DNA from: a virus
Taxonomy: Duplodnaviria > Heunggongvirae > Uroviricota > Caudoviricetes
Reading direction: 5' to 3' (one strand)
DNA length: 20,870 bases
Virus record (IMG/VR): IMGVR_UViG_2896595138_000005
Span: 1-20,870 of that record
In this document: positions 1 to 17,138 of the stretch, in pieces
How positions within the stretch are numbered: position 1 is the stretch's first letter
How the letters are laid out: each line of letters begins with the position of its first letter
Made by a program: the position numbers and the translations under genes
The notes under the pieces: generated by a model
The model's database searches: none
The model's input: the letters and a program-made list of their open reading frames with translations, nothing else
What the model was told of the DNA's origin: nothing

Positions 1-819
1 ATGTGTCAGGTATTTGGTGTATCCAGGAGCGGTTATTACAACCGGGTACAGCATGAACCCTCAGACAGAAAACAAAGTGATGAGCGGCTAAAACTGGAGA
101 TTAAGGTGGCACATATCCGCACTCGCGAAACATATGGAACCCGGCGGCTCCAGACGGAGCTGGCAGAGAATGGCATCATCGTTGGTCGTGACCGACTGGC
201 ACGTCTTCGTAAGGAGCTAAGGCTACGCTGTAAGCAGAAACGCAAGTTCAGAGCGACTACGAACCCGAACCACAATCTGCCAGTTGCGCCAAATCTGCTG
301 AACCAGACGTTCGCTCCTACAGCACCAAATCAGGTCTGGGTGGCGGACCTGACGTATGTTGCCACACAGGAGGGATGGTTGTACCTCGCTGGCATCAAAG
401 ATGTTTATACGTGCGAAATTGTCGGCTACGCCATGGGAGAGCGCATGACAAAAGAGCTGACAGGTAAAGCCCTGTTTATGGCGCTCAGGAGCCAGCGCCC
501 ACCTGCCGGGCTAATCCACCACTCTGATCGAGGTTCACAGTACTGCGCATACGATTACCGGGTCATACAGGAGCAGTTTGGTCTGAAAACATCAATGTCG
601 CGTAAAGGTAACTGTTACGACAACGCTCCGATGGAAAGCTTCTGGGGAACGCTGAAAAATGAGAGCCTGAGCCACTATCGTTTTAATAACCGGGATGAAG
701 CCATCTCAGTAATACGGGAATACATTGAGATTTTCTACAATCGTCAGCGTCGTCACTCTCGTCTGGGGAATATCTCCCCGGCAGCCTTCAGGGAAAAATA
801 TCATCAGATGGCTGCTTAA
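1..819 (+). CDS. IS3-family transposase OrfB (DDE integrase catalytic domain)
   Basis: 272-aa ORF with recognisable IS3 OrfB features ([24 protein letters not shown]); same protein as 17139..17957. Confidence 0.85.
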   Translation: MCQVFGVSRSGYYNRVQHEPSDRKQSDERLKLEIKVAHIRTRETYGTRRLQTELAENGIIVGRDRLARLRKELRLRCKQKRKFRATTNPNHNLPVAPNLLNQTFAPTAPNQVWVADLTYVATQEGWLYLAGIKDVYTCEIVGYAMGERMTKELTGKALFMALRSQRPPAGLIHHSDRGSQYCAYDYRVIQEQFGLKTSMSRKGNCYDNAPMESFWGTLKNESLSHYRFNNRDEAISVIREYIEIFYNRQRRHSRLGNISPAAFREKYHQMAA

Positions 820-862
820 AAAAAGAACAAATGGTAGTGTCCGCTATTGCCAGTACACCTCA
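1..862 (+). mobile_element. IS3-family insertion sequence (IS600-like), partial right-hand copy; window begins inside the element
   Basis: 1..862 matches 17139..18000 of the complete copy base for base where compared; the two diverge immediately after ...CCAGTACACCTCA. Confidence 0.85.
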
Positions 863-982
863 AAGTGCAAGCTGGTTCTTTAGTTTTGTTACTTCTTCAA
901 GTTCAGTGAACACCCCGGACTTAATTAAAGCGTTACGAGCGATTGTCTCTTTCATTCTCGTTGTTAAGCGGATTGATGACAT
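860..982 (-). pseudogene. truncated small ORF whose stop codon is supplied by the IS terminus
   Basis: GAGG-type RBS 7 nt upstream of the ATG at 982; the reading frame ends at TGA 862..860, which is the terminal TCA of the IS on the other strand. Confidence 0.25.
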
Positions 983-1161
983 ATTAATTCCTCTCAAATA
1001 AGTGGTTTGCTGCCTGATTTCATTTTCTGGCGACCAACACAAGTCACACCCATTTCACTGCGTGGCTTGCGGTAGTAAAGATTGTGCCTGTCTTTTAACC
1101 ACATCAGGCTCGGTGGTTCCTTCACTTTCCACAGTCAAAGGAAAGGAAGGTTCAGCGGCTG

Positions 1162-1578
1162 CTATTGAGGTGCTGGAAGTTCAGAAACCGATTTATCAAA
1201 TGCTTTTCGCTCACGTGAAATAGTTTCTGCCTGATTAATCATTACCTGAGCCTGCTGGCGAACAGCTTCACTGGCAGGCTCTTTTGTTAAGAGCTGTGTA
1301 AAACCCGCGATAATGTTGCTGGCTAACATCTCAAACCGTTTTTTCTGAATATCTCTTGATTCTTCATCAATTGGTGGTTCACTATTGCTTAGTGCCGTTA
1401 CATATACGCGAATTGCCGCTGACCGGACATCATCAGGAAGATGATCAAATGTACTGGCTCTTGTTTTTACAAGTTCGACAATATTTGCCTTCTTAATATC
1501 TTCAGTTTTTTCATCAAGTACTGAGATAAAATTTTTTACTGATGCTTCTAATAACGCTTCTAATTTATTTAAATCCAT
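1162..1578 (-). CDS. hypothetical protein immediately downstream of N (pL operon)
   Basis: 138 aa from the ATG at 1578, with a GAGG RBS; sits 2 nt after the N stop codon. No recognisable family. Confidence 0.45.
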   Translation of the reverse strand: MDLNKLEALLEASVKNFISVLDEKTEDIKKANIVELVKTRASTFDHLPDDVRSAAIRVYVTALSNSEPPIDEESRDIQKKRFEMLASNIIAGFTQLLTKEPASEAVRQQAQVMINQAETISRERKAFDKSVSELPAPQ

Positions 1579-1580
1579 AA

Positions 1581-1964
1581 TTACCTCGCTGTCAGTTGTT
1601 TTGATTTCCGGTAGCCTGCCGCGTAAATGGCTACGTTTGGAAGACATACACCAGTTTCTGGTTGCTTATGTCCAAACTCATTCGCGTACACAATGGCCGC
1701 TCGCTCCAGATTGCGTCTGTATTCTTTCTGTTGCCAGATCACGTCCTGTGCCATGAACTTAATTGGCTTAGCGTCTTCTATGCGCTCAGGCGTTTCGTGA
1801 GTACCTTTAGCCTGAATCTGCGCTCTGCTTAGAGTAGGGCGGTGTAATACTTCTGAACTTATTGCTTCTTCGCGGGCCAGCACGCCGTTAGCTAATGCCT
1901 TTGCCTTTAAACGCTCACGACGACGAGAACGTGAATTGCCTTTGAACTGAGTTCTGCGTGTCAT
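1581..1964 (-). CDS. N: N-family transcription antitermination protein (P22 gp24 / Stx-phage N type)
   Basis: 127 aa with an N-terminal arginine-rich motif (NSRSRRRERLKAK) and a C-terminus YAAGYRKSKQLTAR typical of the N family; lies downstream of OL and a boxB hairpin. Confidence 0.8.
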   Translation of the reverse strand: MTRRTQFKGNSRSRRRERLKAKALANGVLAREEAISSEVLHRPTLSRAQIQAKGTHETPERIEDAKPIKFMAQDVIWQQKEYRRNLERAAIVYANEFGHKQPETGVCLPNVAIYAAGYRKSKQLTAR

Positions 1965-2128
1965 ATAGACCTCCTGATGAACTTTGGTGGTGTGGTAGGT
2001 GGGAGACCCATTTTGACCTGTTTCGGCCTACTTCAATTCGGCAATAGTCCCGCAGGCCTCGCCGCTTTACGTGCGACATATTCCCGTCCATGAACCCTTC
2101 ACCACACCCAAAGTTCACTTTGGTTATT

Positions 2129-2143
2129 GCGCTTTGTCAGCGC
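2129..2143 (-). promoter_or_regulatory. nutL boxB-like hairpin
   Basis: Minus-strand GCGCTGACAAAGCGC: 5-bp stem with GACAA pentaloop, between OL and the N start. Confidence 0.55.
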
Positions 2144-2214
2144 CGTAGATTCATATTCGAATCGTTGTATATTCACCGCCCTGGTGAGTAGTGCGTCCTG
2201 CTGATGGCTTAAAG

Positions 2215-2300
2215 ATAACCTAGGTTATAGCGGCGGTCAATAACTTAATTTATGGATTCTGATAAATAAGTTATAAGTGATGGATAATAAAGGTATTTTA
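2215..2300. promoter_or_regulatory. OL operator cluster / pL region
   Basis: Repeated near-palindromic sites ATAACCTAGGTTAT (2215..2228, perfect palindrome), ATAACTTAATTTAT (2240..2253) and ATAAATAAGTTAT (2262..2274), sharing half-sites with the sites in front of cI. Confidence 0.6.
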
Positions 2301-2410
2301 TTTTTGTAAATGTTGCGGATTGGTCGGTATTGGAAGGGGGGCGCTGTATTGCTGGCGTGTTGGTTCGTGGTTTACCGCATTTGCGGCTGTTAAATATGGG
2401 GGACGATCGC

Positions 2411-2445
2411 GAGGCAAAGAAAACCCGGCGCGGAAGCCGGGTTTG
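2411..2445 (-). terminator. rho-independent terminator after the 44-aa ORF
   Basis: Minus-strand AACCCGGC-loop-GCCGGGTT stem followed by TTTTCTTTG. Confidence 0.55.
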
Positions 2446-2459
2446 AGATTTAGTTATTT

Positions 2460-2594
2460 TCAGCAGCTCGGATAAGAGCGGAAGTGCTGACGAACATGTT
2501 CGAGCTCACCGAAACGTATGCGGCAGTAACTGCGCACATAAACCGGCTTGTCGTGTTCGTAGATGAAGTCATCGCGATTAACATCGTGAGCCAT
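2460..2594 (-). CDS. small hypothetical protein (44 aa) not in the supplied ORF track
   Basis: Hand-translated from the minus strand as MAHDVNRDDFIYEHDKPVYVRSYCRIRFGELEHVRQHFRSYPSC; AGGAG RBS 7 nt upstream of the ATG at 2594; terminator follows 16 nt after the stop. Confidence 0.45.
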   Translation of the reverse strand: MAHDVNRDDFIYEHDKPVYVRSYCRIRFGELEHVRQHFRSYPSC

Positions 2595-2715
2595 AGCTTT
2601 TCTCCTGTTTTTGTATACAGCCTGTTTACCCGAACAGGTTGTAGTTTGTTGGGAGAACCGCTATCCTTGGCTTGCGGTTGCCAAGGGTGTAGCGGTAGGT
2701 AATCCTCCATACACT

Positions 2716-2740
2716 TCGGAAATACTGGATATATTTCCGA
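2716..2740. promoter_or_regulatory. perfect 9-bp inverted repeat, candidate operator or hairpin
   Basis: TCGGAAATA-N7-TATTTCCGA, between the terminator of the 177-aa gene and the 44-aa ORF. Confidence 0.35.
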
Positions 2741-2768
2741 CCCAAAAAGCCCCGTTCCCTCGGGCTTT
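2741..2768 (-). terminator. rho-independent terminator after the 177-aa gene
   Basis: Minus-strand AGCCCGAGGGAACGGGGCT stem-loop followed by TTTTT, starting at the TAA stop codon. Confidence 0.5.
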
Positions 2769-3300
2769 ATTCTTTTGTTCCGCCATCAATCATCGCAAAA
2801 GATTCCACAATCAGACTGATACGCTTGGCTTCATCTTTTGTCAGGTCGCGAGGCAGGTTGCCAATGGTGACGATAAGATCTCCGCGCAATGGAATCGGCA
2901 GTTCAAATGTTTTTACACCAACCTGTACGTCAGCTACCGCCTTCTTCTTAGGTGCCATCTTTTTACGCTCCTTTTTTTTATTTACATCACCAACTGACAC
3001 ATTAATCTCACCATTCTGGTAGGAGATAAATTTATCAATAGCACTTTGCATTCGGCTTTTGTATGCCTGCAAAGATGATTCAGAGGGTTTGCTTTCTGCT
3101 GAGTCTGCGTACGAACTTGCTAAGTTGGCAACGCTATAATCACGGATATCGGCATCGGTGAAATCCGCCCCAAGAACAGTAAGAAGGCGCAGGGAAGAGT
3201 CACGGAGATTGCGGGCTGTAGCATCATTGACGATACCAAGCTCAGGAAGCATCTGTAAGAAGTCCTGAAATGCTTTGATGGTGTAGCTTTTGGTTTGCAT
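2767..3300 (-). CDS. hypothetical protein (177 aa) in the cI-to-OL cargo position
   Basis: Long ORF with a lysine-rich central linker (NKKKERKKMAPKKK); no recognisable family; flanked by its own 5' hairpin and 3' terminator. Confidence 0.6.
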   Translation of the reverse strand: MQTKSYTIKAFQDFLQMLPELGIVNDATARNLRDSSLRLLTVLGADFTDADIRDYSVANLASSYADSAESKPSESSLQAYKSRMQSAIDKFISYQNGEINVSVGDVNKKKERKKMAPKKKAVADVQVGVKTFELPIPLRGDLIVTIGNLPRDLTKDEAKRISLIVESFAMIDGGTKE

Positions 3301-3575
3301 AAAAAAGCCTCATACAGTTGATGAGGCAATACTAATTTGATCGTCAAAACAAATCAAGACCCAAGAAACGATCGTTGATTCCTTTCTTTGTGACAATACA
3401 GTCAAATCAAGTTTTACAAGGATTACTTTTCTTCGATTACATTAAAGGCCGCACTTCTGCGACCATCCATCACCAAAATGTCTCTTCACTCATCCGAAGA
3501 AGCAGCAATCCGGGTCAGCACGCACAAGCTCAAGCGCATCAGTCAGCGAAAGTTCAGTACTGTACTGATGCCATT

Positions 3576-3830
3576 TCATATCCTTCCGCATCCAATAGAT
3601 TTTCCATCTATCCAGAGAACGTATGTACTTGATTCTTGCTGATGGCAGGATGTTTGTTTCACCTGGGTTGCCCTGCCACACGGGCGCTGTTCGCCGATAT
3701 CTATCGTTTGGTCATTGATGCTATAAACAATATCCAGTTCATTGCGGATATGTTCAGGCGGCCTTATGCTTTCAATGAATTGGTGAACTTCTTTTTTGAC
3801 CGCTTGATATTCAAGGTCAGTGAACGCCAT
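3576..3830 (-). CDS. hypothetical protein (84 aa) co-transcribed with cI
   Basis: GAGGAGG RBS 5 nt upstream of the ATG; starts 37 nt after the cI stop on the same strand; no recognisable family. Confidence 0.55.
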   Translation of the reverse strand: MAFTDLEYQAVKKEVHQFIESIRPPEHIRNELDIVYSINDQTIDIGEQRPCGRATQVKQTSCHQQESSTYVLWIDGKSIGCGRI

Positions 3831-3867
3831 CTATCCTCCTCACCCAAACGTTTCTTCAGGCCACTGG

Positions 3868-4575
3868 TTACCAGCTATGCGATGACCAGAATACTCTGCC
3901 AATAATCCTTACGGTTTTATGAAATTCATCTCTATCCATTACTTCATCCGGGTACTCTTCGCGATTTATTGATCTGATTATCACCGATGTAGGAGTGGCG
4001 ATTAATGTTTTTACTCGCAACAAATCAGACTGGCAAATAGCGTAGGTTTTACCATCTCTGATGGTGGTATCTTGTGTGTTAACACCAACAACATCGCCAT
4101 CGTGAAGAGTTGGTTCCATGCTTTGACCTGTTACCCTTACCAGCTTGGCAGAACTTTCAGTTACCCCCATCTTTTTCAGATAGTACTTTCTGAAAACCAA
4201 AGAGAACTCTGATGATTCTTCTATCTCGCAGCTACCGCTTCCAGCCGAAAGCGAAACGTTAAGAAGAGGCAATGCGACAAACTCGTCATCGTTTTTTTTA
4301 ATGTCTTCCCATACCACAGCTTTTAAAGATGACTCACGGATATTGGATGGTTCTTCATGTGTACCATCCCTCATTTCACCAATACCAGAACTAAGCCATT
4401 CAGGGCGTACTTTTAAAGCATTAGCTAACTCAACCATCTTGCGAGATCCGTTTGTTTTACCGGATGACATCTTCTGTATGGCTGGCTGAGATATTCCAAC
4501 CATGTCCGCAAGCTGTGATTGCGACACCCCTGCCGATCTCATGGCTGCATTTAGTCTTTCTGCGAATGTTTTCAT
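3868..4575 (-). CDS. cI: CI-type prophage repressor (N-terminal HTH, C-terminal S24 LexA-like autopeptidase domain)
   Basis: HTH-like segment QSQLADMVGISQPAIQKM and a C-terminal S24-like region (VTGQSMEPTLHDGDVV, LRVKTL). Start placed at MKTFAERL (4575) rather than the first in-frame ATG (4605) because an operator site lies between them. Confidence 0.8.
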   Translation of the reverse strand: MKTFAERLNAAMRSAGVSQSQLADMVGISQPAIQKMSSGKTNGSRKMVELANALKVRPEWLSSGIGEMRDGTHEEPSNIRESSLKAVVWEDIKKNDDEFVALPLLNVSLSAGSGSCEIEESSEFSLVFRKYYLKKMGVTESSAKLVRVTGQSMEPTLHDGDVVGVNTQDTTIRDGKTYAICQSDLLRVKTLIATPTSVIIRSINREEYPDEVMDRDEFHKTVRIIGRVFWSSHSW

Positions 4576-4587
4576 ATCCACAAATCT

Positions 4588-4662
4588 ATAACTACGGTTA
4601 TCCAAAGTAAAATAATAAAGGTTATTGCTATCTTTTATAACTTGGGTTATCCTTGGTTATAA
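4588..4662. promoter_or_regulatory. OR operator cluster with divergent pRM/pR
   Basis: ATAACTACGGTTAT (4588..4601), ATAAAGGTTAT (4615..4625), ATAACTTGGGTTAT (4637..4650) and GGTTATAA (4655..4662), between the divergent cI and cro starts. Confidence 0.6.
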
Positions 4663-4686
4663 GCAATGGCTGAAAGAGGTATGCTC

Positions 4687-4911
4687 ATGAATTTAGTAAT
4701 TCAACGAGCCTTGAAGATTGTCGGTAGTCAAAAGCGGCTTGCCGACAAGTGTGGTGTAACGCAGCCAGCAGTACACAAATGGCTGAAAGGCGGGCAGGTT
4801 TCTCCAGAGAAAGTTACCGCCATCGTTAACGCCACTGGAGGGCAGATCAAGGCTTACGAAATTCGCCCAGATTTACCACACCTGTTTCCAAAACCGAATC
4901 AGGCAGCATAA
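4687..4911 (+). CDS. cro: Cro-like HTH repressor
   Basis: Small HTH protein (KRLADKCGVTQPAVHKWLKG) divergent from cI; AGAGGT RBS favours the ATG at 4687 over the ORF-track start at 4666. Confidence 0.7.
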   Translation: MNLVIQRALKIVGSQKRLADKCGVTQPAVHKWLKGGQVSPEKVTAIVNATGGQIKAYEIRPDLPHLFPKPNQAA

Positions 4912-4949
4912 GTAACACCGCTATTTTCACAATGGGCATTCGTCCTACG

Positions 4950-4964
4950 TCGCTGACAAAGCGA
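4950..4964 (+). promoter_or_regulatory. nutR boxB-like hairpin
   Basis: TCGCTGACAAAGCGA, same GACAA pentaloop as nutL, between cro and cII; a boxA-like CGCTATTTTCACAA lies about 25 nt upstream. Confidence 0.5.
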
Positions 4965-5049
4965 GCCCCAAGATATCTGACCAACTAAGGCCATATGCGT
5001 TTCCATGCATACCTTTCAACTAACTATTCACTATTGGAAATCTTAAGAA

Positions 5050-5349
5050 ATGGAACAAACAAGTTACAGCAAACTATCACAGCGCGACGTTGATCGCGCA
5101 GAAACAGATTTACTTATCAACCTGTCAACGCTTACACAGCGCGGTCTGGCAAAGATGATTGGCTGCCATGAATCGAAGATCAGTCGTACCGACTGGCGGT
5201 TTATTGCTTCGGTCTTGTGTGCTTTCGGAATGGCATCAGACATCAGTCCGATTAGCAGGGCTTTTAAGTATGCGCTTGATGGACTCACCAATAAAAAACG
5301 CCCGGTGTGCAAAACCGAGCGTTCTGAACAAATCCAGATGGAATTTTAA
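5050..5349 (+). CDS. cII: CII-like transcriptional activator
   Basis: 99-aa HTH protein (TQRGLAKMIGCHESKISR) in the canonical position after cro and nutR. Confidence 0.65.
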   Translation: MEQTSYSKLSQRDVDRAETDLLINLSTLTQRGLAKMIGCHESKISRTDWRFIASVLCAFGMASDISPISRAFKYALDGLTNKKRPVCKTERSEQIQMEF

Positions 5350-5371
5350 CAACATCCAACGAGGTAATTAT

Positions 5372-5643
5372 ATGCGAAACAAAGGCTTTAATCCACCTGA
5401 TACACACAAAGAAGCTAAGCGTTTGCGCTTCCTTCGTTCCATTGATGAAAGAACTCAAATCTCTTTTGTGAAAGTTGCCAGAACTGAGCTTCTGAAAGCT
5501 GAGGCGAGGGCGTTGCTCCCGCCTCTACCAAAAGAGGAGGGATATACGTTCATTCCAAACGCATTTCTGGAAAAGCTGCTCAAAGAAGACATATCCGTAA
5601 GTCAGTTTAACGATGTTCTTAAGGTCTTTCGTCAAGGCAGGTA
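5372..5643 (+). CDS. hypothetical protein between cII and the replication genes
   Basis: 90 aa from an internal ATG with a GAGG RBS, inside the longer ORF-track frame 5159..5644. Confidence 0.4.
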
Positions 5644-5646
5644 GTG

Positions 5647-6531
5647 ATGAGCAATACAGCAAAAATCTACGATTTCAGCGCCGCACACGAGCGCAGGAGC
5701 AACAGGATGGAGAACCAGAAAACTGGTTACATTCCGTTGTACCGGAGCATTCTGAAACAGTCATGGGCGAAAGATGTTTATCTTCGCACCCTGTGGGAAA
5801 ACCTTCTCCTGAATGCTGCCAGAAAGCCATACAAAGCGAATTTCAAAGGTCATGAATGGCATGTGCAACCCGGTCAACTGGTTGTGACAGCAGCTGATTT
5901 AGGTCTTCAGTTATGCGACAGGCATGGCAAGCCAGCAAGCCGTGATCAGGTTGAGCGGATGCTTCAGGTTTTTGTGAAAGAGGGGATGATCTCCATTGAT
6001 GGAGAGAAGCAAAAAGGTCGTGTGATCACCATCACAAATTACCATGAATATGCTCAAAAAATGGACAATTCACCCGCACATGAAGCCGCACAAACAACCG
6101 CACATCATGAACAAGAAGGTATTAACAAGAATATAAATAATATCTCTAATACTGACGTATTAGAGAGTGCCACAGCAGACAAAAAGTCTGACAAGAAAAA
6201 ACCTTCCGTTAGCTGTCAGGATGTTGTCGATGCTTACCACGAAATCCTTCCTGAAGCGCCAAGAATCCGCGCACTGAATGACAAGCGTAAAAACCAGATC
6301 CGAACGTTCTGGCGCAAAGCCGGAGTGATAACCCGCCAGCTTGACGGGCATGGGTTCACGATGCAGGACTGGAGAAATTATTTGAGCTACGTAGGCGAAA
6401 ATTGCCGATGGATGTTCGAAGAGCGCCCAAACCATCAGCGCGGAACCGTCTGGCACAAAAAGGGATTTGATTACCTGCTTAACGATAATACCTACCTGAA
6501 AGTTCGTGAGGGTGAACACGATGACCGATAA
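5647..6531 (+). CDS. phage replication initiation protein (O-like)
   Basis: 294 aa in the O position, ending 11 nt inside the start of the helicase gene; assignment is by position and general resemblance. Confidence 0.6.
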   Translation: MSNTAKIYDFSAAHERRSNRMENQKTGYIPLYRSILKQSWAKDVYLRTLWENLLLNAARKPYKANFKGHEWHVQPGQLVVTAADLGLQLCDRHGKPASRDQVERMLQVFVKEGMISIDGEKQKGRVITITNYHEYAQKMDNSPAHEAAQTTAHHEQEGINKNINNISNTDVLESATADKKSDKKKPSVSCQDVVDAYHEILPEAPRIRALNDKRKNQIRTFWRKAGVITRQLDGHGFTMQDWRNYLSYVGENCRWMFEERPNHQRGTVWHKKGFDYLLNDNTYLKVREGEHDDR

Positions 6532-7957
6532 TTTTTATGCGCCGCCCCATAGCATCGAGGCAGAGCAGGCGGTGATTGGTGGATTGCTTCTGGATGATGA
6601 CAGCAGTGAGCGCGTCCAGAAGGTTCTTGCGATGCTGAAGCCTGACTCATTTTACAGCCGGCCACACAAAATCCTTTTCGAAGAAATAACCAGAATGCAC
6701 CGGGAGCAAAAGCCAGTAGATGGCCTGACGCTTTTCGATGAACTGGAGCGTAAATCGTTAACGGCGTCTGTTGGCGGTTTTGCTTATATCGCTGAGATCG
6801 CAAAGAACACGCCAAGCGCCGCAAACATCGTTGCCTATGCAATGCAGGTTCGCGAAACCGCAATGGAACGCTACGCCATCAACCGCATGACTGAAGCGAC
6901 GGAATTGCTCTATTCCCGCAACGGAATGACTGCAACGCAGAAGTACGAAGCTATTCAGGCGATTTTCACGCAACTGACAGACCATGCAAAAACCGGATCA
7001 CGTCGCGGCCTTCGCTCATTTGGTGAGGTCATGGAAGACTGGGTTAGCGACCTTGAGAAGCGTTTTGACCCGTCAGGCGAACAACGAGGAATGAGCACAG
7101 GGATCCCATCGCTGGACAGGATGCTGTCACCGAAAGGTCTGGTGAAAGGCTCTCTGTTTGTCATTGGCGCTCGCCCTAAGATGGGGAAAACGACGCTATA
7201 CAGCCAGATGGCAATCAACTGCGCAGTGCATGAGAAAAAGCCCGCTCTGATGTTCAGCCTTGAAATGCCAGGTGATCAGATACTGGAAAAACTGGTAGGG
7301 CAGAAGTCTGGTGTTAACCCGAATATTTTTTACCTTCCGGCGACAAATGACGCCGATGACGGCTATCAGGGTGATTACGATGGTGACTTCAACAGGGCGA
7401 TCGAAACAGCCAATCGCTTGAGTGAAATCGACCTGCTTTACATCGACGACACGCCGGGATTATCTCTGGCTCAAATCGTCAGCGAAAGCCGTCGAATCAA
7501 GCGAGAAAAAGGATGTGTTGGCATGATTCTGGTCGATTACCTGACACTAATGACCGCTGAAAAGGCCGATCGCAACGACCTTGCCTACGGCATGATCACC
7601 AAAGGACTGAAGAACCTTGCCAAAGAGCTTGATTGCGTTGTTGTGCTTCTGACGCAGCTTAACCGCGCACTGGAAAGCCGAACCAATAAACGCCCATTAC
7701 CAAGTGACTCACGAGATACAGGGCAGATTGAACAGGATTGCGATTATTGGGTGGGGATCCATCGTGAAGGTGCTTTTGATGACAGTGTTCCACCTGGTGA
7801 AACCGAACTAATCCTTCGTCTCAATCGTCATGGCAATACCGGCACGGTGTATTGCATTCAGGCAAATGGAGCTATTTATGACACAGACCAACAGTCTGCT
7901 GAAATGCGCCGCCGTGAACGCGAGGAACCGCAGTCCAAGAAGAAAGGAGGATTCTGA
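6521..7957 (+). CDS. replicative DNA helicase, DnaB family (P-equivalent)
   Basis: DnaB N-terminal signature PPHSIEAEQAVIGGLLLD and Walker A GARPKMGKT; GAGGGTG RBS before the ATG at 6521. Confidence 0.85.
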   Translation: MTDNFYAPPHSIEAEQAVIGGLLLDDDSSERVQKVLAMLKPDSFYSRPHKILFEEITRMHREQKPVDGLTLFDELERKSLTASVGGFAYIAEIAKNTPSAANIVAYAMQVRETAMERYAINRMTEATELLYSRNGMTATQKYEAIQAIFTQLTDHAKTGSRRGLRSFGEVMEDWVSDLEKRFDPSGEQRGMSTGIPSLDRMLSPKGLVKGSLFVIGARPKMGKTTLYSQMAINCAVHEKKPALMFSLEMPGDQILEKLVGQKSGVNPNIFYLPATNDADDGYQGDYDGDFNRAIETANRLSEIDLLYIDDTPGLSLAQIVSESRRIKREKGCVGMILVDYLTLMTAEKADRNDLAYGMITKGLKNLAKELDCVVVLLTQLNRALESRTNKRPLPSDSRDTGQIEQDCDYWVGIHREGAFDDSVPPGETELILRLNRHGNTGTVYCIQANGAIYDTDQQSAEMRRREREEPQSKKKGGF

Positions 7958-7985
7958 TGACCATCTACATCACTGAGCTAATAAC

Positions 7986-8017
7986 AGGCCTGCTGGTAAT
8001 CGCAGGCCTTTTTATTT
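7986..8017 (+). terminator. rho-independent terminator (tR2-like) between helicase and ninB
   Basis: AGGCCTGC-loop-GCAGGCCT stem followed by TTTTTATTT. Confidence 0.6.
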
Positions 8018-8032
8018 GGGGAGAGGGAAGTC

Positions 8033-8473
8033 ATGAAAAAACTAACCTTTGAAATTCGATCTCCAGCACATCAGCAAAACGCTATTCACGCGGTACAGCA
8101 AATTCTTCCAGACCCAACCAAACCAATCGTAGTAACCATTCAGGAACGCAACCGCAGCTTAGACCAGAATCGAAAGCTTTGGGCTTGCCTTGGTGACGTC
8201 TCTCGTCAGGTTGAATGGCATGGTCGCTGGCTGGATGCAGAAAGCTGGAAGTGTGTGTTTACCGCGGCATTAAAGCAGCAGGACGTTGTTCCTAACCTTG
8301 CCGGGAATGGCTTTGTGGTAATAGGCCAGTCAACCAGCAGGATGCGTGTAAGCGAATTTGCGGAGTTATTAGAGCTTATACAGGCATTCGGTACAGAGCG
8401 TGGCGTTAAGTGGTCAGACGAAGCGCGACTGGCTCTGGAGTGGAAAGCGCGATGGGGAGATCGGGCTGCATGA
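8033..8473 (+). CDS. ninB: NinB recombination protein
   Basis: 146 aa with the characteristic N-terminus [21 protein letters not shown] and [10 protein letters not shown]. Confidence 0.8.
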
Positions 8474-9159
8474 CTATCAAATCAAATACGCCAGCACACG
8501 ACAAGGACTGCTGGCAAACGCCACTTTGGCTTTTTGATGCGCTGGATATTGAGTTTGGATTCTGGCTGGATTCGGCAGCGAGCGACAAAAATGCTCTGTG
8601 CGCTCACTGGCTAACTGAGGCCGACGACGCGCTCAATTCTGAGTGGGTAAGCCACAGTGCAATCTGGAATAACCCACCGTACAGCAATATCAGGCCGTGG
8701 GTGGAAAAAGCCGCTGAGCAGTGTATACAACAGCGACAGACGGTAGTTATGCTTGTGCCAGAGGATATGTCAGTCGGATGGTTCAGCAAGGCTCTGGAGA
8801 GTGTTGACGAAGTTCGCATCATCACTGATGGACGGATTAATTTTATCGAACCATCGACAGGGCTGGAGAAAAAGGGAAACAGTAAAGGCTCAATGCTGCT
8901 GATTTGGCGACCGTTCATCAGTCCCCGGCGAATGTTTACTACCGTATCCAAAGCGGCATTGATGGCGATCGGGCAGGGCGGCATGAGGCGACAGCGACGA
9001 AGTATTACCGACATAATCTGTGAAAACTGCAAATACCTTCCAACGAAACGCTCCAGAAATAAACGCAAGCCAATCCCAAAAGAATCTGACGTAAAAACCT
9101 TCAACTACACGGCTCACCTGTGGGATATCCGGTGGCTAAGACATCGTGCGAGGAAATGA
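8470..9159 (+). CDS. phage DNA N6-adenine methyltransferase (Dam type) with C-terminal basic extension
   Basis: NPPY catalytic motif; ATG at 8470 overlaps the ninB stop (ATGA); last ~60 residues are basic and not typical of the family. Confidence 0.7.
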
Positions 9160-9200
9160 CTATTTATCCGGTGCGCCGCCAGAATGACGGCGCGGTGTGG

Positions 9201-9509
9201 TTAAACGAAGCGGATCTGGAGTTTTTTTCCAGTAGCGCGGGCGAATTTTTTTAGTGTGGCAAATGATGGGCCGCTGATACCTGATGCGAGATTACTTTCC
9301 ATTCTGGTGATCGCGGTCGCTTTTGTTCCCATTCGCTCGGCAACTTCAGCCTGAGTTAAGCCAGCTTCTTTGCGTGCTGCCAGCATTTCATCAAGCAGTG
9401 CGAATTCGTCAGCGATAGCGTCGTATTCTGCTTTAAAAGCCGGGTCTTCCATCCATTTGGCTGCCATTTCGTCGTGTGTCATGGTGGGGAGAGTGCGTTT
9501 ACCAGTCAT
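9201..9509 (-). CDS. HigA-like HTH antitoxin (XRE family)
   Basis: HTH segment LTQAEVAERMGTKATAITRME; sits downstream of and overlaps the toxin gene. Confidence 0.7.
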   Translation of the reverse strand: MTGKRTLPTMTHDEMAAKWMEDPAFKAEYDAIADEFALLDEMLAARKEAGLTQAEVAERMGTKATAITRMESNLASGISGPSFATLKKFARATGKKLQIRFV

Positions 9510-9828
9510 GCTTAACCTCCTTCATTCTGGTTTCAGCTTTCTTGCGTTCGGCTGGCGGTGTTTTCTGCGTTTTCTTTACAAAACTATGCAGCATGATGAT
9601 GCGTTTCCCTGTCAGAGTGCAGTAAAAAACACGCGCGATCCCATCGTTGCCTTTAATTCTGAGTTCGAAAAGTCCGTCACCAAAGGCGCTGGTGTGAGGT
9701 TCTCCGAGATTGCTGCCATATATCTTCATACGTTCAACGAGATGTTGGTATCGGGCACGCATACTCAATGGAAGCCGATCGACTTCCAGCCTTACATCTT
9801 CACTGTAGTATTCGATAGTGTAGTTCAT
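9499..9828 (-). CDS. HigB/RelE-ParE family toxin (Gp49-like)
   Basis: Conserved C-terminal pattern LHSFVKKTQKTPPAERKKAETRMKE; start uncertain, the frame opens at 9918. Confidence 0.65.
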   Translation of the reverse strand: MNYTIEYYSEDVRLEVDRLPLSMRARYQHLVERMKIYGSNLGEPHTSAFGDGLFELRIKGNDGIARVFYCTLTGKRIIMLHSFVKKTQKTPPAERKKAETRMKEVKHDW

Positions 9829-9949
9829 AGGTATCAACATAACAAAATCGTTATATGCATTCAAGGCCTGTAGTTGACGACAACACATATCCGGGCTATA
9901 TTCCTCATACGCCAGCAAAATCTGGCGTCGGGATTGAGACCCCGGATGT

Positions 9950-10420
9950 TTACGGAGCGATATGAGACGCGCCCGCGTCTTTTTTCATATCGTTTGCACA
10001 GTCACATTCGCGATTTATGGTGGGCTGTGTGGGGGAGCCGAAACCGATAACCATTTCTTTGTTGAAGAGACAAAGCGAGCAGGCCAGTCCGATCGCGGTC
10101 CAACTGAGCCCCATTTCACGGGATTTTTCGGTAATACCATTCTCCCGATTGCTCCAGCGTTCCATAATCCAGTGGATCCACTCCTCCTGCTTAGGGAAGA
10201 GTAAAAACGGAATGGTCACCGGCAGGCCATAATCAATATTACGCGGGTCCGTTGTCATGCCCCAGCCGATAATGAACTGAGCCGGGTTGGTACGGTAAAA
10301 CTGTTTTAGTGCAGGCAATATTTCAGGATTCTGGCGAATGCGCTGTAGGCGTTCCATCCGCCATTCAAAAACCATCTGGTAATCAGGATGTTTAAAATCG
10401 AAGGGGAATGGTAACGGCAT
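9950..10420 (-). pseudogene. terminase large subunit, N-terminal fragment only
   Basis: Directly follows terS; only 156 codons where several hundred are expected; no portal, head or tail genes follow. Confidence 0.6.
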
Positions 10421-10422
10421 AC

Positions 10423-10977
10423 TTAGCCCATCATTTTTCTATACACCTCTGCGGCCTGCTCAGGCGTTAATTTGGTAATTTCTGTTCTGACTGGTCCTCC
10501 GTCAGCGCCAGTCACTTCATTTTTGACGTTGTCTTTAAACGCCTGAACAGAAACATGACGCCCAAGCAACTCAAGGTTTTTAACCTTATCAGGCCATTTG
10601 ATTTTCTTCAGAAGTGCGGCGCTATCTGCGGATACCATCTCCACGACATCCATTCCTGATAGCGTTGTGCGCCATACCTTAGGCCAGTCTTTAATGGGCT
10701 TTAGCTCACCGTTTTGCAGGAGAATGTCGAGCACATCCATCTGGTCGATTTCAACCAATCTACGAAGAACATAGGCGGCATCTATACCCGTCTGCTCAAC
10801 GCGGGCGGATTTAAGTTCAGCAACGAATTTTTGAACATTAACATTTGCTAATAATCGAGATGCCTGCTCATTGGCGGTCTTCTCGCTGTAGCCCGCCCTG
10901 ATAGCTGCCTGTGTGCCGTTCAGATCTTTCAGGTACTCACGGGCAAACAGCTCTTGTTTGTCGGTGAGCTTTGCCAT
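10423..10977 (-). CDS. terminase small subunit (P27 family)
   Basis: N-terminus [35 protein letters not shown] is the family signature. Confidence 0.8.
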
Positions 10978-11078
10978 TATTTGTGCTCCGTTTATCCGTT
11001 AAAAGGGATATCAGTTAAGTTATCCCGTGTAGGGTATAAGCCATTATCAAGCCCACCAGTAGATGGGCTTTGTAATGG

Positions 11079-11336
11079 CTACTTCGCTTTTGCTTCCGCT
11101 CGCTTACGCCGGCGCTCTTCTTTCCTCTCGGCTTTTGCCATGTCCATGAATGTCTGCATGATCGAGTTCCGCATCATGTAGCTAACAAAGTGATGATTGA
11201 CACAGCCGTTGAGGCGCAGCTGCTCGCCAAACTCATCCACCGAGGCCAATGCTTCCATCATGCCCTTCTCGCCTTTCATGAACTCTGAGAAGTCGCGCCC
11301 CGCTCTGGAGGCGCATTCAATGACACGATCACTCAT
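11079..11336 (-). CDS. hypothetical protein with basic C-terminal tail
   Basis: 85 aa ending KAERKEERRRKRAEAKAK; start overlaps the stop of the KilA-N gene (ATGA). Confidence 0.45.
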   Translation of the reverse strand: MSDRVIECASRAGRDFSEFMKGEKGMMEALASVDEFGEQLRLNGCVNHHFVSYMMRNSIMQTFMDMAKAERKEERRRKRAEAKAK

Positions 11337-11830
11337 CCCGGAAGCCCGGGGATCGTTATCTGCAGCTGGTTAGCCAGGGAGTTAATCTCAGCGACCAACA
11401 CTGGCTTCGTATAGCGCCATGCCGCCAGCCCTTGTCCACAGAAGCTCGCCATATCTTTTTTCTGATCAAACTCATGACACTTCATATTGAGCTGCGCACT
11501 TAAGCTGTTGCGATGCTGAAGTTCTCCGGTGAAGTAGTCATCCAGGACTTTATAGGCTGCATATTTAAATCCGGGGTTTAGCCATGCTGCATAATCATAA
11601 GCAACAAACTTCCCGCCATATGTTCCACCGTGTACACCGCGCTCAGTAAAAACCACAGATTCGTGGTTTTTCTCCAGCTCGGCTAAGAACTCTTTGGTCT
11701 GCTTGTTTCGCAGGTAGTGGTACGGAGATTCAGATTCACTTTTACCACTGGCTTTCCACATATCAGTGAGGCAGATCATTCCTGATTCATCAACACGGAT
11801 CGGTGTATTAAAAAGCGTGATTGCTTTCAT
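11333..11830 (-). CDS. KilA-N domain protein
   Basis: N-terminal KilA-N-like segment (ITLFNTPIRVDESGMICLTDMWKASGK). Confidence 0.6.
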   Translation of the reverse strand: MKAITLFNTPIRVDESGMICLTDMWKASGKSESESPYHYLRNKQTKEFLAELEKNHESVVFTERGVHGGTYGGKFVAYDYAAWLNPGFKYAAYKVLDDYFTGELQHRNSLSAQLNMKCHEFDQKKDMASFCGQGLAAWRYTKPVLVAEINSLANQLQITIPGLPG

Positions 11831-11977
11831 GGCGTCTTTACCTTTTAGAAAGATGAGCCTGTTCGCACAGAAAAGCCGTCCCCGAGATGGTCGCCACCAT
11901 ATACGGCAATTCTCAGGCTCAGCTTTCTGAAAGACTCGGGGTTTATATGCGCTGCGATGCGCGGTTTACTGCGGACA

Positions 11978-12003
11978 TATAAAAGCCCCGCAAGTGCGAG
12001 GCT
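11978..12003 (-). terminator. candidate rho-independent terminator after Rz
   Basis: GC-rich imperfect stem (AGCCTCGCA / TGCGGGGCT) followed by TTTTAT on the minus strand. Confidence 0.35.
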
Positions 12004-12035
12004 CATTAAATGGACTTTGTGATTTGCAAAAAAAT

Positions 12036-12503
12036 TTATTTCAGGCACTGAGTCCTGATGTACTCCTGAAGCATTCTCAATGCTGTCTGGTCGCTGATGA
12101 TTCCGTCCCGGATACCGAGAACGTTTCGTCCAGCAACTGGAGAGAGTTCGACGGTGGCATCATTGCCCATGCCGGAGGCGCTGGAGGTTTCGGCTGAGGA
12201 TGGCACAGGGCATTTTCCTTTGACGAGCACCCGACCACCATTATCAAGCTTGCGCCGAAGAGCATCATTTTCAGCTTTCGCATTGGCTAACTCCTTCGTG
12301 TATTTAGCATCGAGTGCATCAGCAGCACGCTGGCGCTGCTGCATGTCAGTAATGGTTGCGTTCGCCAGCTTCAGTTCTCTTGCGTTTTTGTCGCGCTGCT
12401 CTTTGTAGGTAATGGCGTTATCACGGTAATGATTAACAGCCCATGACAGGCGGACGATGATGCAGATAACCAGAGCGGAGATAATCGCGGTGACTCTGCT
12501 CAT
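12036..12503 (-). CDS. Rz: Rz i-spanin
   Basis: N-terminus [17 protein letters not shown] with a transmembrane segment, then an [19 protein letters not shown] region. Confidence 0.75.
12077..12283 (-). CDS. Rz1: Rz1 o-spanin lipoprotein, embedded in Rz in another frame
   Basis: Lipobox VVGC after a signal peptide, then a proline-rich segment (PKPPAPPAW). Confidence 0.7.
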
Positions 12504-12996
12504 TGCTGCCCCACAAACAGACTTCACGCTCAATCTCACGACGGGTCATCAGCCCTTTCCATTGCTTACCGCCAGCATATGTCCAGCGACGTAGCTGGTC
12601 ACATGCGCCTTTGATATCGCCCTGGTTTATTTTGCGAAGAAGCGTCGATGTTCTGAAATTGCCAGCGCCCACGTTGTAAACGAACGAGTAAAGAGCGCCG
12701 CGCGTTGTTTCCGGTATATCGACTTTGATGTACGGGTTAATTTGTCTGGCGACAGTGGCAAGGTCTTTATTCAGGAGAGCTTTGCATTCTGCTTCGGTAT
12801 ACGTTTTACCAGGCATGATGTCTTTTCCGGTGTGTCCGTGACATACAGTCCATACACCAATGATATCTTTGTATGGTATGTAGCTGACACCTTCCAGACC
12901 ATCGTTACCACCTGGGCCAGTGATTAACACAGATGCTATAGCAACAGCCCCGCCACCAATAGCAACTGCAACAGCCTTGCGTAATGATGGCGACAT
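12433..12996 (-). CDS. R: SAR endolysin (phage 21 R-type lysozyme)
   Basis: N-terminal Gly/Ala-rich signal-anchor ([20 protein letters not shown]); start overlaps the holin stop (ATGA); 3' end overlaps the Rz start by about 70 bp. Confidence 0.8.
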
Positions 12997-13211
12997 TATT
13001 CACCTCTCGCAGCCTTACGCTTGTCTTCTCTTAATTTGAAATACAGATTCGTCAGATAAGTCAGAAGCCCCAGAAGCAGACTTCCCAGCACACCAATCGC
13101 AGCCCACTGTGATGGACTGACCTGATCCAACCACTGCAAAAACCAGTAGCCGGCACTGCCGGCGGAGGTGCCGTAGGCAATGCCCGTTGAAATTTTGTCC
13201 ATGGATTTCAT
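12996..13211 (-). CDS. S: class II holin (phage 21 S-type pinholin)
   Basis: Dual-start MKSMDK motif and two transmembrane segments; start at 13211 inside the longer ORF-track frame. Confidence 0.75.
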
Positions 13212-13327
13212 AGCCTCACCTCCGCAAATAACGGATGGCGTAGTTCTTATATTGGGAAGGGAAAAAAAAGGCCGCAGCGTAACTGTCACTGATGAATTCA
13301 GGATAGCCAGTGGCTACGGCTCAGTTA

Positions 13328-13403
13328 TGGTGCTGGTTAACGGACTTGAACCGCTACCCATTCGCTTACAAGGCGACTGCTCTACCATTAGAGCTAAACC
13401 AGC
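13328..13403 (-). tRNA. tRNA-like gene, anticodon UGU (Thr) by hand folding
   Basis: 76 nt with 7-bp acceptor stem, GCTC/GAGC D-stem, CTTGTAA anticodon loop, TTCAAGT T-loop and encoded CCA. Confidence 0.5.
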
Positions 13404-13408
13404 ATATT

Positions 13409-13483
13409 TGGCGGGACAGCGTGGACTCGAACCACGATAAGAAGGTTAACAGCCTTCCGTAATGACCTTTATACGACTGACCC
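13409..13483 (-). tRNA. tRNA-like gene, anticodon GUU (Asn) by hand folding
   Basis: 75 nt with perfect GAAGG/CCTTC anticodon stem, CTGTTAA loop, CGTGG-TTCGAGT-CCACG T-arm and encoded CCA; one mismatch each in acceptor and D stems. Confidence 0.45.
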
Positions 13484-13672
13484 AAATAAAAAATCCCGAA
13501 AGCAGGCTCTATTCCTATGTGCTCTCGAGTTTATGATGCGCATGTCAGTGCGCTTAGCGAAAAACGCCGTAAACCCTCGCCCGACAGGGCGGGGAGCAGT
13601 CACAACTTAAAGATGAGGTGGGTAAAAAACCGAAAGAATGTGAACGGATATAAACCTGCCATTCTTGAGTCA

Positions 13673-13701
13673 AATTTACCCAACTTTATTCAAAAAGTCA
13701 A
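13673..13701 (-). promoter_or_regulatory. late promoter pR' (lambda-like)
   Basis: Minus-strand TTGACT, 17-nt spacer, TAAATT, within TTGACTTTTTGAATAAAGTTGGGTAAATTTGACTCAA. Confidence 0.6.
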
Positions 13702-13743
13702 TATCATGCCGTTAAGATGTTGCCATCCATGGCAATCATGCCG

Positions 13744-14367
13744 CTAACGTGTGACCGCATTCAAAATGTTGTCTGCGATTGACTCTTCTTTGTGGCATTG
13801 CACCACCAGAGCGTCATACAGCGGCTTAACAGTGCGTGACCATGTGGGTTGGGTGAGGTTTGGGATTAGCATCGTTACAGCGCGATATGCTGCACTTGCT
13901 GGCATCCTTGAATAGCCGACACCTTTGCATCTTCCGCACTCTTTCTCGACAACTCTCCCCCACTGCTCTGTTTTGGCTATATCAACTGCCAGACCTGTTC
14001 CGTGGCAATCTCTGCATCTTGCGCCCGGCGTCGCGGCACTACGGCAATAATCCGCATAAGCGAATGTTGCGAGCACTTGCAGTACCTTTGCCTTAGTATT
14101 TCCTTCGAGCTTTGCCACACCACGGTATTTCCCCGATACCTTGTGTGCAAATTGCATCAGATAGTTGATAGCCTTTTGTTTGTCGTTCTGGCTGAGTTCA
14201 TGCTTACCGCAAAATGCAGCCATTCCGAATCCGGCTTGTGATTGCGCCATCCCCATAGCAGCCATCACATCAGTACCGGAAAGAGAGTCAGAAGCCGTAG
14301 CCCGTGGTGAGTCGCTCATCATCGGGCTTTTTAGCGAATGAAATTTAGCTACGCTTTCGAGTCTCAT
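13744..14367 (-). CDS. Q: late antiterminator Q (lambda Q type)
   Basis: 207 aa with a CxxC...CxxC zinc-binding motif (CRDCHGTG...CGRCKG); recalled as near-identical to lambda Q. Confidence 0.8.
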   Translation of the reverse strand: MRLESVAKFHSLKSPMMSDSPRATASDSLSGTDVMAAMGMAQSQAGFGMAAFCGKHELSQNDKQKAINYLMQFAHKVSGKYRGVAKLEGNTKAKVLQVLATFAYADYCRSAATPGARCRDCHGTGLAVDIAKTEQWGRVVEKECGRCKGVGYSRMPASAAYRAVTMLIPNLTQPTWSRTVKPLYDALVVQCHKEESIADNILNAVTR

Positions 14368-14552
14368 CGTCTTCCCCTCTTGCCCTGTTTGACCATCAGG
14401 ACGCCGTTAACTATTACGTGACGCTCGCCTTTGCTGTCTCGGTTGTACTTGAGCACTGTTCCTCTTGCGCAGGAAAGCATCCTCGCCACTTCGGTCTGAT
14501 TGCCTCGTGTCTGGATAAGAAGCTCTGGTATCGTTTGAATTGTGGCGTTCAT
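14364..14552 (-). CDS. ninH: NinH-like small DNA-binding protein
   Basis: Segment GNQTEVARMLSCARGTV resembles lambda NinH. Confidence 0.6.
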   Translation of the reverse strand: MNATIQTIPELLIQTRGNQTEVARMLSCARGTVLKYNRDSKGERHVIVNGVLMVKQGKRGRR

Positions 14553-14911
14553 ACGTTCTCCAGTTCGGTGATTTTTATTCCAAGCCTTCCGCCTGGTACT
14601 TTCACACCACGAATTACGCGAATGTCATCGAATTGCTCGTCGTCTTCCGCAAATCCGGCGTGGATAAGAGAGTCGAGTAGCCCCTTCAGGATGTTGTCGA
14701 GGTCGCGGCGGCGGGAGTCTGGAACGTCTGCGATGACTTTGATGCGGAGTCGTGCTTTGGTGAAAATATCTAACTTGAGTTGGCGGATGATTTGCTGAAC
14801 GTCTTTTCGGTATTTCTGGCCTTTATAGCTGATGTAGTATTGGCTTCCCCGTCTTCGCCAGTAGGTGTTCAGCGACGGTGGGTATGGAAGCACAAACTGA
14901 TATTCGTTCAT
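14549..14911 (-). CDS. rusA: RusA-family Holliday junction resolvase
   Basis: 120 aa with the RRRDLDN motif characteristic of RusA. Confidence 0.8.
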   Translation of the reverse strand: MNEYQFVLPYPPSLNTYWRRRGSQYYISYKGQKYRKDVQQIIRQLKLDIFTKARLRIKVIADVPDSRRRDLDNILKGLLDSLIHAGFAEDDEQFDDIRVIRGVKVPGGRLGIKITELENV

Positions 14912-15926: not shown

Positions 15927-15951
15927 GTCCTCTCATATTGAAAATTCAGCA

Positions 15952-15975
15952 ATAAAAAACCCAGCCGAAGCTGGG
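15952..15975 (-). terminator. rho-independent terminator between the ORF6N gene and the antirepressor gene
   Basis: Minus-strand CCCAGC-TTCG-GCTGGG followed by TTTTTTATT. Confidence 0.55.
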
Positions 15976-15994
15976 TCGTTGCGTTGGCAATCTG

Positions 15995-16672: not shown

Positions 16673-16800
16673 AACGATAACTCCGTACATTTGGTCATTA
16701 TCGCCACCTTCTGGTCTCAATAATCTGGTGGCGAGCTGAGGTAGCCTGAGTTTAACGGACACTCCTTCCTGAAATAGAATGGCATCAGAAGGAGCTAATA

Positions 16801-17103
16801 ATGAGCAGAAAAACCCAACGTTACTCTAAAGAGTTCAAAGCCGAAGCTGTCAGAACGGTTCTTGAAAATCAACTTTCGATCAGTGAAGGCGCTTCCCGAT
16901 TATCCCTTCCTGAAGGCACTTTAGGACAATGGGTTACCGCCGCCAGAAAAGAGCTCGGTACTCCTGGTTCCCGCACGGTGGCTGAACTGGAATCTGAAAT
17001 TCTGCAACTGCGTAAGGCGTTAAATGAAGCTCGCCTTGAGCGAGATATATTAAAAAAAGCAACAGCGTATTTTGCACAGGAGTCGCTGAAAAATACGCGT
17101 TAA
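16801..17103 (+). CDS. IS3-family transposase OrfA (HTH, leucine zipper)
   Basis: 100 aa; the A7G frameshift site lies near its 3' end. Confidence 0.85.
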
Positions 17104-17138
17104 TCGAACAATGGCGACAACAATTTCCCATTGAAGCG

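What the first reader, a model, noticed from the sequence alone, without database searches (positions are those of the whole stretch)
860..982. Short ORF terminated by the IS terminus
The reading frame ends in a stop codon formed by the last bases of the IS, so this is probably the 5' remnant of a gene interrupted by the insertion or rearrangement.
Basis: seen in the sequence. Interest (0 to 1): 0.2.

Follow-up and report, generated by a model that had tools for sequence, protein, structure and literature searches.

The report
Phage gene stub cut by IS600
This 40-codon reading frame is the leftover start of a 207-residue prophage gene (Nmad5 family) that was cut off by the end of an IS600 insertion sequence, an ordinary piece of prophage decay.

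Summary
On the minus strand, ATG 982-980 opens a 40-codon frame. Its TGA stop is the complement of TCA at 860-862, the last three bases of the right inverted repeat of IS600.

In lambdoid phages such as SH2026Stx1, mEp235 and HK542, the same 40 residues (97.5% identical) begin a 207-aa gene directly downstream of antiterminator N. That gene is a full-length Pfam Nmad5 (PF18757) protein, which NCBI names "Nmad5 family putative nucleotide modification protein". Homology to those phages stops exactly at window 862/863.

One refinement: this is not a simple split gene. Two public chromosomes carry the identical junction. Across the IS lies host DNA, ycaM in one and ycaI in the other, and there is no 3-bp target duplication. 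The 3' 504 bp of the gene, and the prophage left arm that would lie beyond it, are therefore not at this locus. An IS600-associated deletion or rearrangement is the likely cause.

In some Stx2a phages IS629 independently splits the same gene 13 bp away.

The stub is a non-functional pseudogene fragment. It is ordinary, already present in public data, and of low interest.

The parts
860..982 (-). 40-codon ORF plus TGA stop. It is the 5' remnant (gene nt 1-120 at 863-982) of a 207-aa Nmad5-family phage gene. The stop at 860-862 is supplied by the IS600 terminus.
1..862 (+). IS600 copy 1, the 3' 862 bp (the window starts at the listed orfB ATG). The listed orfB ORF is 1-819 and the right inverted repeat ends in ...CCTCA at 862.
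983..993 (-). 11-bp spacer between the N stop and the Nmad5 start, holding most of the ribosome-binding site (GAGAGGAA, which begins in the last 2 nt of the N TGA stop at 994-995). It is conserved in phages with the intact gene.
994..1079 (-). Orphan 3' end of a lambda-type N gene (about 28 codons, ...RKPRSEMGVTCVGRQKMKSGSKPLI*). It travels with the Nmad5 module and marks a mosaic joint at about 1079/1080.
1162..1578 (-). 138-aa ORF of unknown function between N and the remnant, in the same pL-operon orientation.
1581..1964 (-). Complete 933W-type antiterminator N (127 aa, PF25694), the upstream gene of the operon.
16737..18000 (+). Complete IS600 copy 2 (1264 bp). It was used to define the IS terminus and is itself without a target duplication.

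Best explanation
The ORF is a dead 5' stub of a lambdoid-prophage gene of the Nmad5 family (PF18757). In intact phages this gene is 207 codons long and is the first gene after N in the leftward early (pL) operon.

An IS600 element (IS3 family) now abuts gene nucleotide 120. IS600 ends in 5'-...CCTCA-3', so the coding strand reads TGA as the first IS codon, in frame. Translation, if any, would stop after Leu40 with no IS-encoded tail.

The remaining 504 bp of the gene are not on the other side of the IS. Neither is anything of the prophage left arm that lies downstream of this gene in intact relatives (cIII, kil, recombination genes in mEp235 and HK542). The IS joins the stub to host chromosomal DNA.

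The most likely history, which is inferred, has two steps. IS600 first inserted into the gene. Homologous recombination between IS600 copies then deleted or moved the distal DNA; this genome carries many copies and the window holds two. The stub covers 36 of the 206 positions of the domain, so it is taken to be non-functional.
For: Shown by tool results:
- The ORF and the source of its stop codon.
- The IS600 identity and its exact terminus, from the complete second copy and from RefSeq annotation.
- A 207-aa homologue immediately downstream of N in SH2026Stx1, mEp235 and HK542, 97.5% identical over residues 1-40, with DNA homology starting at window 863.
- The full-length protein matches Pfam Nmad5 over 1-206/206 with E = 3e-71. 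The stub alone matches positions 1-36 with E = 1.3e-7.
- The stub falls in the same 90%-identity cluster as the 207-aa protein. That cluster has 2436 members (40 read), and the members carrying a descriptive name are called 'Nmad5 family putative nucleotide modification protein'.
- Intact copies are annotated under that name in about 209 of 5426 complete E. coli genomes. In the phage collection, 76 records match the protein at 95% identity or more.
- The exact 40-aa ORF and junction occur in CP026845.1 (identical to window 1-10982), in CP026877.1 and in about 10 short-read assemblies.
- Across the IS lie ycaM nt 1034 onward in CP026845.1 and ycaI in CP026877.1. No Nmad5 residues 41-207 are found within 10 kb.
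- The flanks are AAT / AAG, so there is no 3-bp duplication.
Against: - I could not search the whole source genome, so the 3' part of the gene might survive elsewhere next to another IS600. That would mean inversion or translocation rather than deletion.
- The order of events is not resolved. The alternatives are insertion followed by IS-IS recombination, or a one-step IS-mediated adjacent deletion.
- Non-function of the 40-residue peptide is inferred, not tested.
Confidence: 0.95

Rival explanations
1. This is a simple IS600 insertion. The gene is merely split, with its 3' 504 bp intact on the far side of the same IS copy and flanked by a 3-bp target duplication.
For: This is the default expectation for an IS in a gene. 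It is exactly what IS629 does to the same gene in Stx2a phage LC616043.1, with a TTC duplication.
Against: In CP026845.1 (identical to the window) the left IS end abuts ycaM. In CP026877.1 it abuts ycaI. tblastn finds only residues 1-40 in 20 kb around the junction, and the flanks AAT / AAG differ. The predicted reciprocal junction sequence was absent from the species-representative genome collection, which is weak evidence because Shigella-like genomes seem not to be represented there.
Confidence: 0.03
2. The junction arose in one step. An IS600 already resident in the chromosome (in ycaM) made an intramolecular transposition or adjacent deletion into the prophage gene. The gene was never simply split, and no reciprocal product ever existed.
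For: The lack of any target duplication and the direct ycaM-IS600-Nmad5' joint fit this as well as they fit the two-step route.
Against: From general knowledge, not tested here: IS3-family elements move mainly by copy-out/paste-in through a circular intermediate. IS-rich Shigella-type genomes are known for homologous recombination between IS copies. Two genomes share the prophage-side junction but differ on the other side, which shows that recombination at this IS copy does occur.
Confidence: 0.25
3. The 40-codon ORF is a real small gene, or a retained functional micro-protein, rather than debris.
For: It keeps its start codon and ribosome-binding site. It sits in an operon with an intact N and a promoter-like site upstream at 2240-2212. 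Gene callers did call it in public assemblies.
Against: It covers only positions 1-36 of a 206-position domain. Its end is set by an IS terminus. It is seen on only about 10-12 contigs, against 623 contigs for a single intact sequence variant. No conservation of a 40-aa form independent of the IS was found.
Confidence: 0.02

Closest known systems
Nmad5 family (Pfam PF18757; PHROG 1965) gene downstream of N in lambdoid phages, e.g. SH2026Stx1 AVO22779.1, mEp235 gp37 and HK542 gp33
   Same: The first 40 residues are 97.5% identical and the DNA is 96-97% identical over 217 bp. The ribosome-binding site, the position directly after an N gene 3' end and the strand are the same.
   Different: Only 120 of 624 bp remain, and residues 41-207 are missing. 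The family has no demonstrated biochemistry. Its name comes from a computational association with DNA-base-modification genes. A distant Dhillonvirus Nmad5 was reported as the locus of escape mutations from the Tmn defence system, and its cloning was unsuccessful, apparently because of toxicity (PMC11846954). No solved structure, PADLOC hit or NCBIfam hit was found.
IS629 insertion in the same gene in Stx2a-converting phages (LC616043.1 and relatives)
   Same: This is also an IS3-family element in the same orientation, with its right end next to the 5' stub. It lies 13 bp from the IS600 junction and leaves a 5' stub of about 36 codons.
   Different: There it is a clean insertion: 1310 bp, a TTC duplication, and the 3' part of the gene retained. 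The stub also reads 12 codons into IS629 before stopping. Here the 3' part is not at the locus and the stop is the very first IS codon.
IS-bounded prophage remnants of Shigella-type genomes
   Same: Two IS600 copies without target duplications join unrelated pieces: prophage early region to ycaM, and antirepressor to mlrA. There is also an inverted late-gene block and a further IS66-family element.
   Different: Nothing unusual was noted. The organism name of the source record was not available to me. Shigella is my inference from the IS load and from identical prophage genes in CP000034.1, which I recall as S. dysenteriae Sd197.

Membership tests
Nmad5 (Pfam PF18757) | Sequence match to the family HMM above the curated gathering score | tested here: met
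   The 40-aa stub scores 32.4 bits against a cut-off of 27, E = 1.3e-7. The intact 207-aa phage homologue scores 240 bits, E = 3e-71.
Nmad5 (Pfam PF18757) | Presence of the whole domain of about 206 positions, as a precondition for being a functional member | tested here: not met
   The stub covers profile positions 1-36 of 206. No further residues are found within 10 kb in either chromosome. It is a fragment of a member, not a functional member.
Nmad5 (Pfam PF18757) | Neighbourhood of, or activity in, nucleotide/DNA base modification | not testable with these tools
   In the annotated lambdoid phage regions I looked at, the neighbours are N and cIII/kil/recombination genes, and no base-modification enzymes are annotated there. 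I found no biochemical data for the family.
IS600 (IS3 family) | Element of about 1.26 kb with imperfect terminal inverted repeats beginning 5'-TG and ending CA-3' | tested here: met
   Copy 2 is 1264 bp. IRL TGAGGTAGCCTGAG... and IRR TGAGGTGTACTGGC... match at 20 of 30 positions. Copy 1 is 100% identical over 862 bp.
IS600 (IS3 family) | Two overlapping transposase frames, orfA (HTH) and orfB (DDE/rve) | tested here: met
   The 100-aa product hits HTH_Tnp_1. The 272-aa product hits HTH_21, rve, rve_3 and rve_2. RefSeq names the element 'IS3-like element IS600 family transposase'.
IS600 (IS3 family) | 3-bp direct target-site duplication flanking a simple insertion | tested here: not met
   Copy 1 flanks are AAT (from L004) and AAG. 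Copy 2 flanks are AGC and ATG. This does not argue against the element being IS600. It indicates that both copies sit at recombinant joints.

The most novel reading that the evidence does not exclude
The first ~120 bp of the lambdoid Nmad5 gene may be a recurrent landing site for IS3-family elements. IS600 sits at nt 120/121 here, and IS629 sits at nt 105-107 in Stx2a phages, in the same orientation. This could reflect either a target hot spot or selection to silence a costly pL-operon gene in resident prophages. Cloning of a distant Nmad5 was unsuccessful, apparently because of toxicity (PMC11846954).
Probability: 0.12. Interest if true: 0.3.

Novelty: already known. Interest (0 to 1): 0.08.

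Why it matters
It matters little beyond correct annotation. The ORF should be labelled as a pseudogene fragment ([quoted passage not shown]) rather than as a hypothetical protein.

The junction is a useful marker. It shows that this prophage has lost its left arm at this locus and is part of an IS600-scrambled set of prophage remnants. The shared junction with differing far flanks could serve as a lineage marker for the strains that carry it.

Tried and rejected
- **Junction in E. coli:** I looked for the same junction in 5426 complete E. coli genomes and found none; no place covered the junction.
- **Junctions in representative genomes:** I scanned the species-representative genome collection for the predicted reciprocal junction (GCGTCAAG+IRL) and for the observed junction. 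Both gave 0 hits, probably because Shigella-type genomes are not represented separately there.
- **Naming the source organism:** searches of papers for CP026845, CP026877 and the GCA/GCF numbers gave 0 papers.
- **Intact ancestor arrangement:** I looked for N(933W type) - orf138 - N' - full Nmad5 in phages and in E. coli genomes. It was not found contiguous; the best hits share either N+orf138 or N'+Nmad5.
- **Function of the intact protein:** I found no solved structure (best E = 0.054, not meaningful), no PADLOC hit and no NCBIfam hit.
- **Structure prediction:** not run. The stub is too short to be informative, and the intact protein is not encoded in this window.
- **Plus-strand ORFs:** ORFs 831-1001 and 1002-1223 overlapping the site were treated as antisense chance frames and were not searched for homologues.

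Full report
**Observation**

The window begins inside an IS3-family element. Its listed orfB ORF runs 1-819 (272 aa). The sequence ...GTGTCCGCTATTGCCAGTACACCTCA ends at 862.

A complete second copy lies at 16737-18000. It is 1264 bp, with terminal repeats TGAGGTAGCC.../TGAGGTGTAC... that match at 20 of 30 positions. It is 100% identical to window 1-862, which fixes the terminus of copy 1 at 862. RefSeq annotation of matching E. coli DNA names the element IS600. Pfam hits on the two transposase frames (HTH_Tnp_1; rve) agree.

On the minus strand, ATG 982-980 opens MSSIRLTTRMKETIARNALIKSGVFTELEEVTKLKNQLAL. Then comes TGA, the complement of TCA at 860-862, which are the last three IS bases.

A 40-codon ORF is not itself remarkable: the window has 92 ATG-ORFs of at least 40 aa. 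Homology is what makes this one real.

**What it is**

Window 863-1079 matches 343 phage records at 90-100% identity. In SH2026Stx1, mEp235 and HK542 the matched stretch covers three things:
- the last ~85 bp of an N antiterminator gene;
- an 11-bp spacer;
- the first 120 bp of a 624-bp CDS annotated 'hypothetical protein'.

That CDS encodes 207 aa, and its first 40 residues are 97.5% identical to the window ORF. A four-way DNA alignment shows identity running up to window 863 and nothing shared to the left of it. Where the intact gene continues with codon 41 (GAC, Asp), the window has the IS600 end.

The 207-aa protein is a full-length Pfam Nmad5 (PF18757, 1-206/206, E = 3e-71) and PHROG 1965 (unknown function). 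The stub alone still passes the Nmad5 gathering score, at positions 1-36 with 32.4 bits.

In the 15-billion-protein collection the stub falls in the same 90% cluster as the 207-aa protein. That cluster has 2436 members. Of the 40 read, those with a descriptive name are called 'Nmad5 family putative nucleotide modification protein'. About 209 of 5426 complete E. coli genomes carry an essentially full-length copy under that name.

**Insertion or rearrangement?**

An exact look-up of the 40-aa product found it on 12 contigs. Two are complete chromosomes. CP026845.1 is 100% identical to window 1-10982 and is probably the source or a near twin. The other is CP026877.1. The rest are about ten short-read contigs that break just inside the IS.

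In CP026845.1 the left end of this IS600 copy abuts nucleotide 1034 of ycaM, followed by ycaN, ycaK, pflA and pflB. In CP026877.1 it abuts ycaI, followed by ihfB, rpsA and cmk. ycaM is intact in E. coli FDAARGOS_943.

tblastn finds only residues 1-40 in the 20 kb around either junction. The flanking triplets are AAT and AAG, so there is no 3-bp duplication.

The stub is therefore joined by the IS to host DNA. In intact relatives the DNA downstream of this gene holds cIII, kil and recombination genes. None of that is at this locus, and the rest of the gene is missing too.

Two genomes keep the same prophage-side junction but differ on the other side. This shows that recombination at this IS copy has happened at least once since the junction formed. 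I infer a two-step history: insertion, then recombination between IS600 copies. I cannot exclude a one-step IS-mediated deletion. I also cannot say whether the 3' part survives elsewhere in the genome.

**Surroundings**

The stub is the last piece of a leftward early operon:
- a promoter-like site at 2240-2212;
- a complete 933W-type N (1964-1581, 127 aa, PF25694);
- a 138-aa ORF with no family hit (1578-1162);
- an orphan 28-codon 3' end of a lambda-type N (1079-994), which marks a mosaic joint;
- the stub itself.

No phage or E. coli genome in the collections has this whole arrangement with an intact Nmad5 gene. That is ordinary lambdoid mosaicism.

The rest of the window is a patchwork:
- cI/cro/cII/O/P/nin genes;
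- a HigB/HigA-like pair;
- an inverted late block (small terminase, KilA-N, Rz, lysozyme, holin, two tRNAs, Q, RusA, YbcO, two antirepressors);
- IS600 copy 2 without a target duplication, joining a 5'-truncated antirepressor to a fragment of mlrA;
- a prophage integrase and an IS66-family transposase.

**How it works**

It does not do anything. The stub keeps a start codon and a ribosome-binding site, so read-through from pL could yield a 40-residue peptide. That peptide would end cleanly, because the IS600 terminus reads TGA in frame. With 36 of 206 domain positions it cannot be a functional Nmad5 protein.

What Nmad5 proteins do is not known experimentally. The name reflects a computational association with base-modification genes. 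The one experimental paper I found concerns a distant Dhillonvirus homologue. A point mutation in it lets the phage escape the Tmn defence system, and cloning of the gene was unsuccessful, apparently because of toxicity (PMC11846954). I found no solved structure, PADLOC hit or NCBIfam hit.

**A side observation**

In Stx2a-converting phages such as LC616043.1, IS629 sits in the same gene only 13 bp from the IS600 junction and in the same orientation. IS629 is another IS3-family element, 1310 bp here. It is a clean insertion, with a TTC duplication at gene nt 105-107 and the 3' part of the gene retained. In LC616031.1 the far side of that IS629 has in turn been replaced by a truncated cI and a 933W-type N.

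Two independent IS3-family hits this close together may be coincidence, a target preference, or selection against the gene. I did not test this further.

**Verdict**

The one refinement is that the IS marks a deletion or rearrangement joint rather than a simple split. Both the gene family and the IS are known, and the exact ORF is already in public assemblies with the Nmad5 Pfam hit attached. Interest is low.

Noticed in passing
L014 (LC616043.1 11000-13300), equivalent to window 876-878; also L012/L013 (LC616031.1): IS629 (1310 bp, TTC target duplication) independently splits the same Nmad5 gene 13 bp from the IS600 junction, in the same orientation. In LC616031.1 the far side of that IS629 is instead a truncated cI plus a 933W-type N. 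This could be an IS3-family hot spot or recurrent inactivation.
   Followed up: partly
window 994-1079 (-): An orphan 28-codon 3' end of a lambda-type N gene lies downstream of a complete 933W-type N (1581-1964). It is a mosaic recombination scar carried along with the Nmad5 module.
   Followed up: partly
window 1162-1578 (-): A 138-aa ORF between N and the stub has no Pfam, PHROG, NCBIfam or PADLOC hit. The N+orf138 stretch (window 993-1700) is found contiguous, at least 80% covered and about 95% identical, in only 3 complete E. coli genomes. Function is unknown.
   Followed up: partly
window 16737-18000 and flanks 15995-16736, 18001-18225: The second, complete IS600 copy has no target duplication (AGC / ATG). 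Its left end cuts the 5' end of an ORF6N/P22_AR_C antirepressor gene, whose ORF now starts inside the IS. Its right end abuts a fragment of mlrA (yehV).
   Followed up: partly
window 18225-20870: The mlrA fragment abuts a prophage tyrosine integrase (18253-19200). The same mlrA-integrase joint is found in 458 complete E. coli genomes. An IS66-family transposase follows (19312-20490). This looks like the edge of a different, mlrA-integrated prophage.
   Followed up: partly
window 9950-16736 (-), with 9201-9918: The late-gene block lies inverted relative to the O/P/nin genes, next to a Gp49/HTH_3 (HigB/HigA-like) pair. It holds small terminase, KilA-N, Rz, lysozyme, holin, Q, RusA, YbcO and antirepressors. 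This indicates further rearrangement of the prophage.
   Followed up: no
window 9909-9985 (+); 13331-13403 and 13412-13483 (-): Rfam hits above the gathering score: isrK Hfq-binding sRNA (70.6 bits) and two tRNA genes between Q and the holin.
   Followed up: no
L004 11385 onward vs L005 11385 onward: Two chromosomes share the identical Nmad5'-IS600 junction, but the other IS end abuts ycaM nt 1034 in one and ycaI in the other. This shows later recombination at this IS copy.
   Followed up: partly
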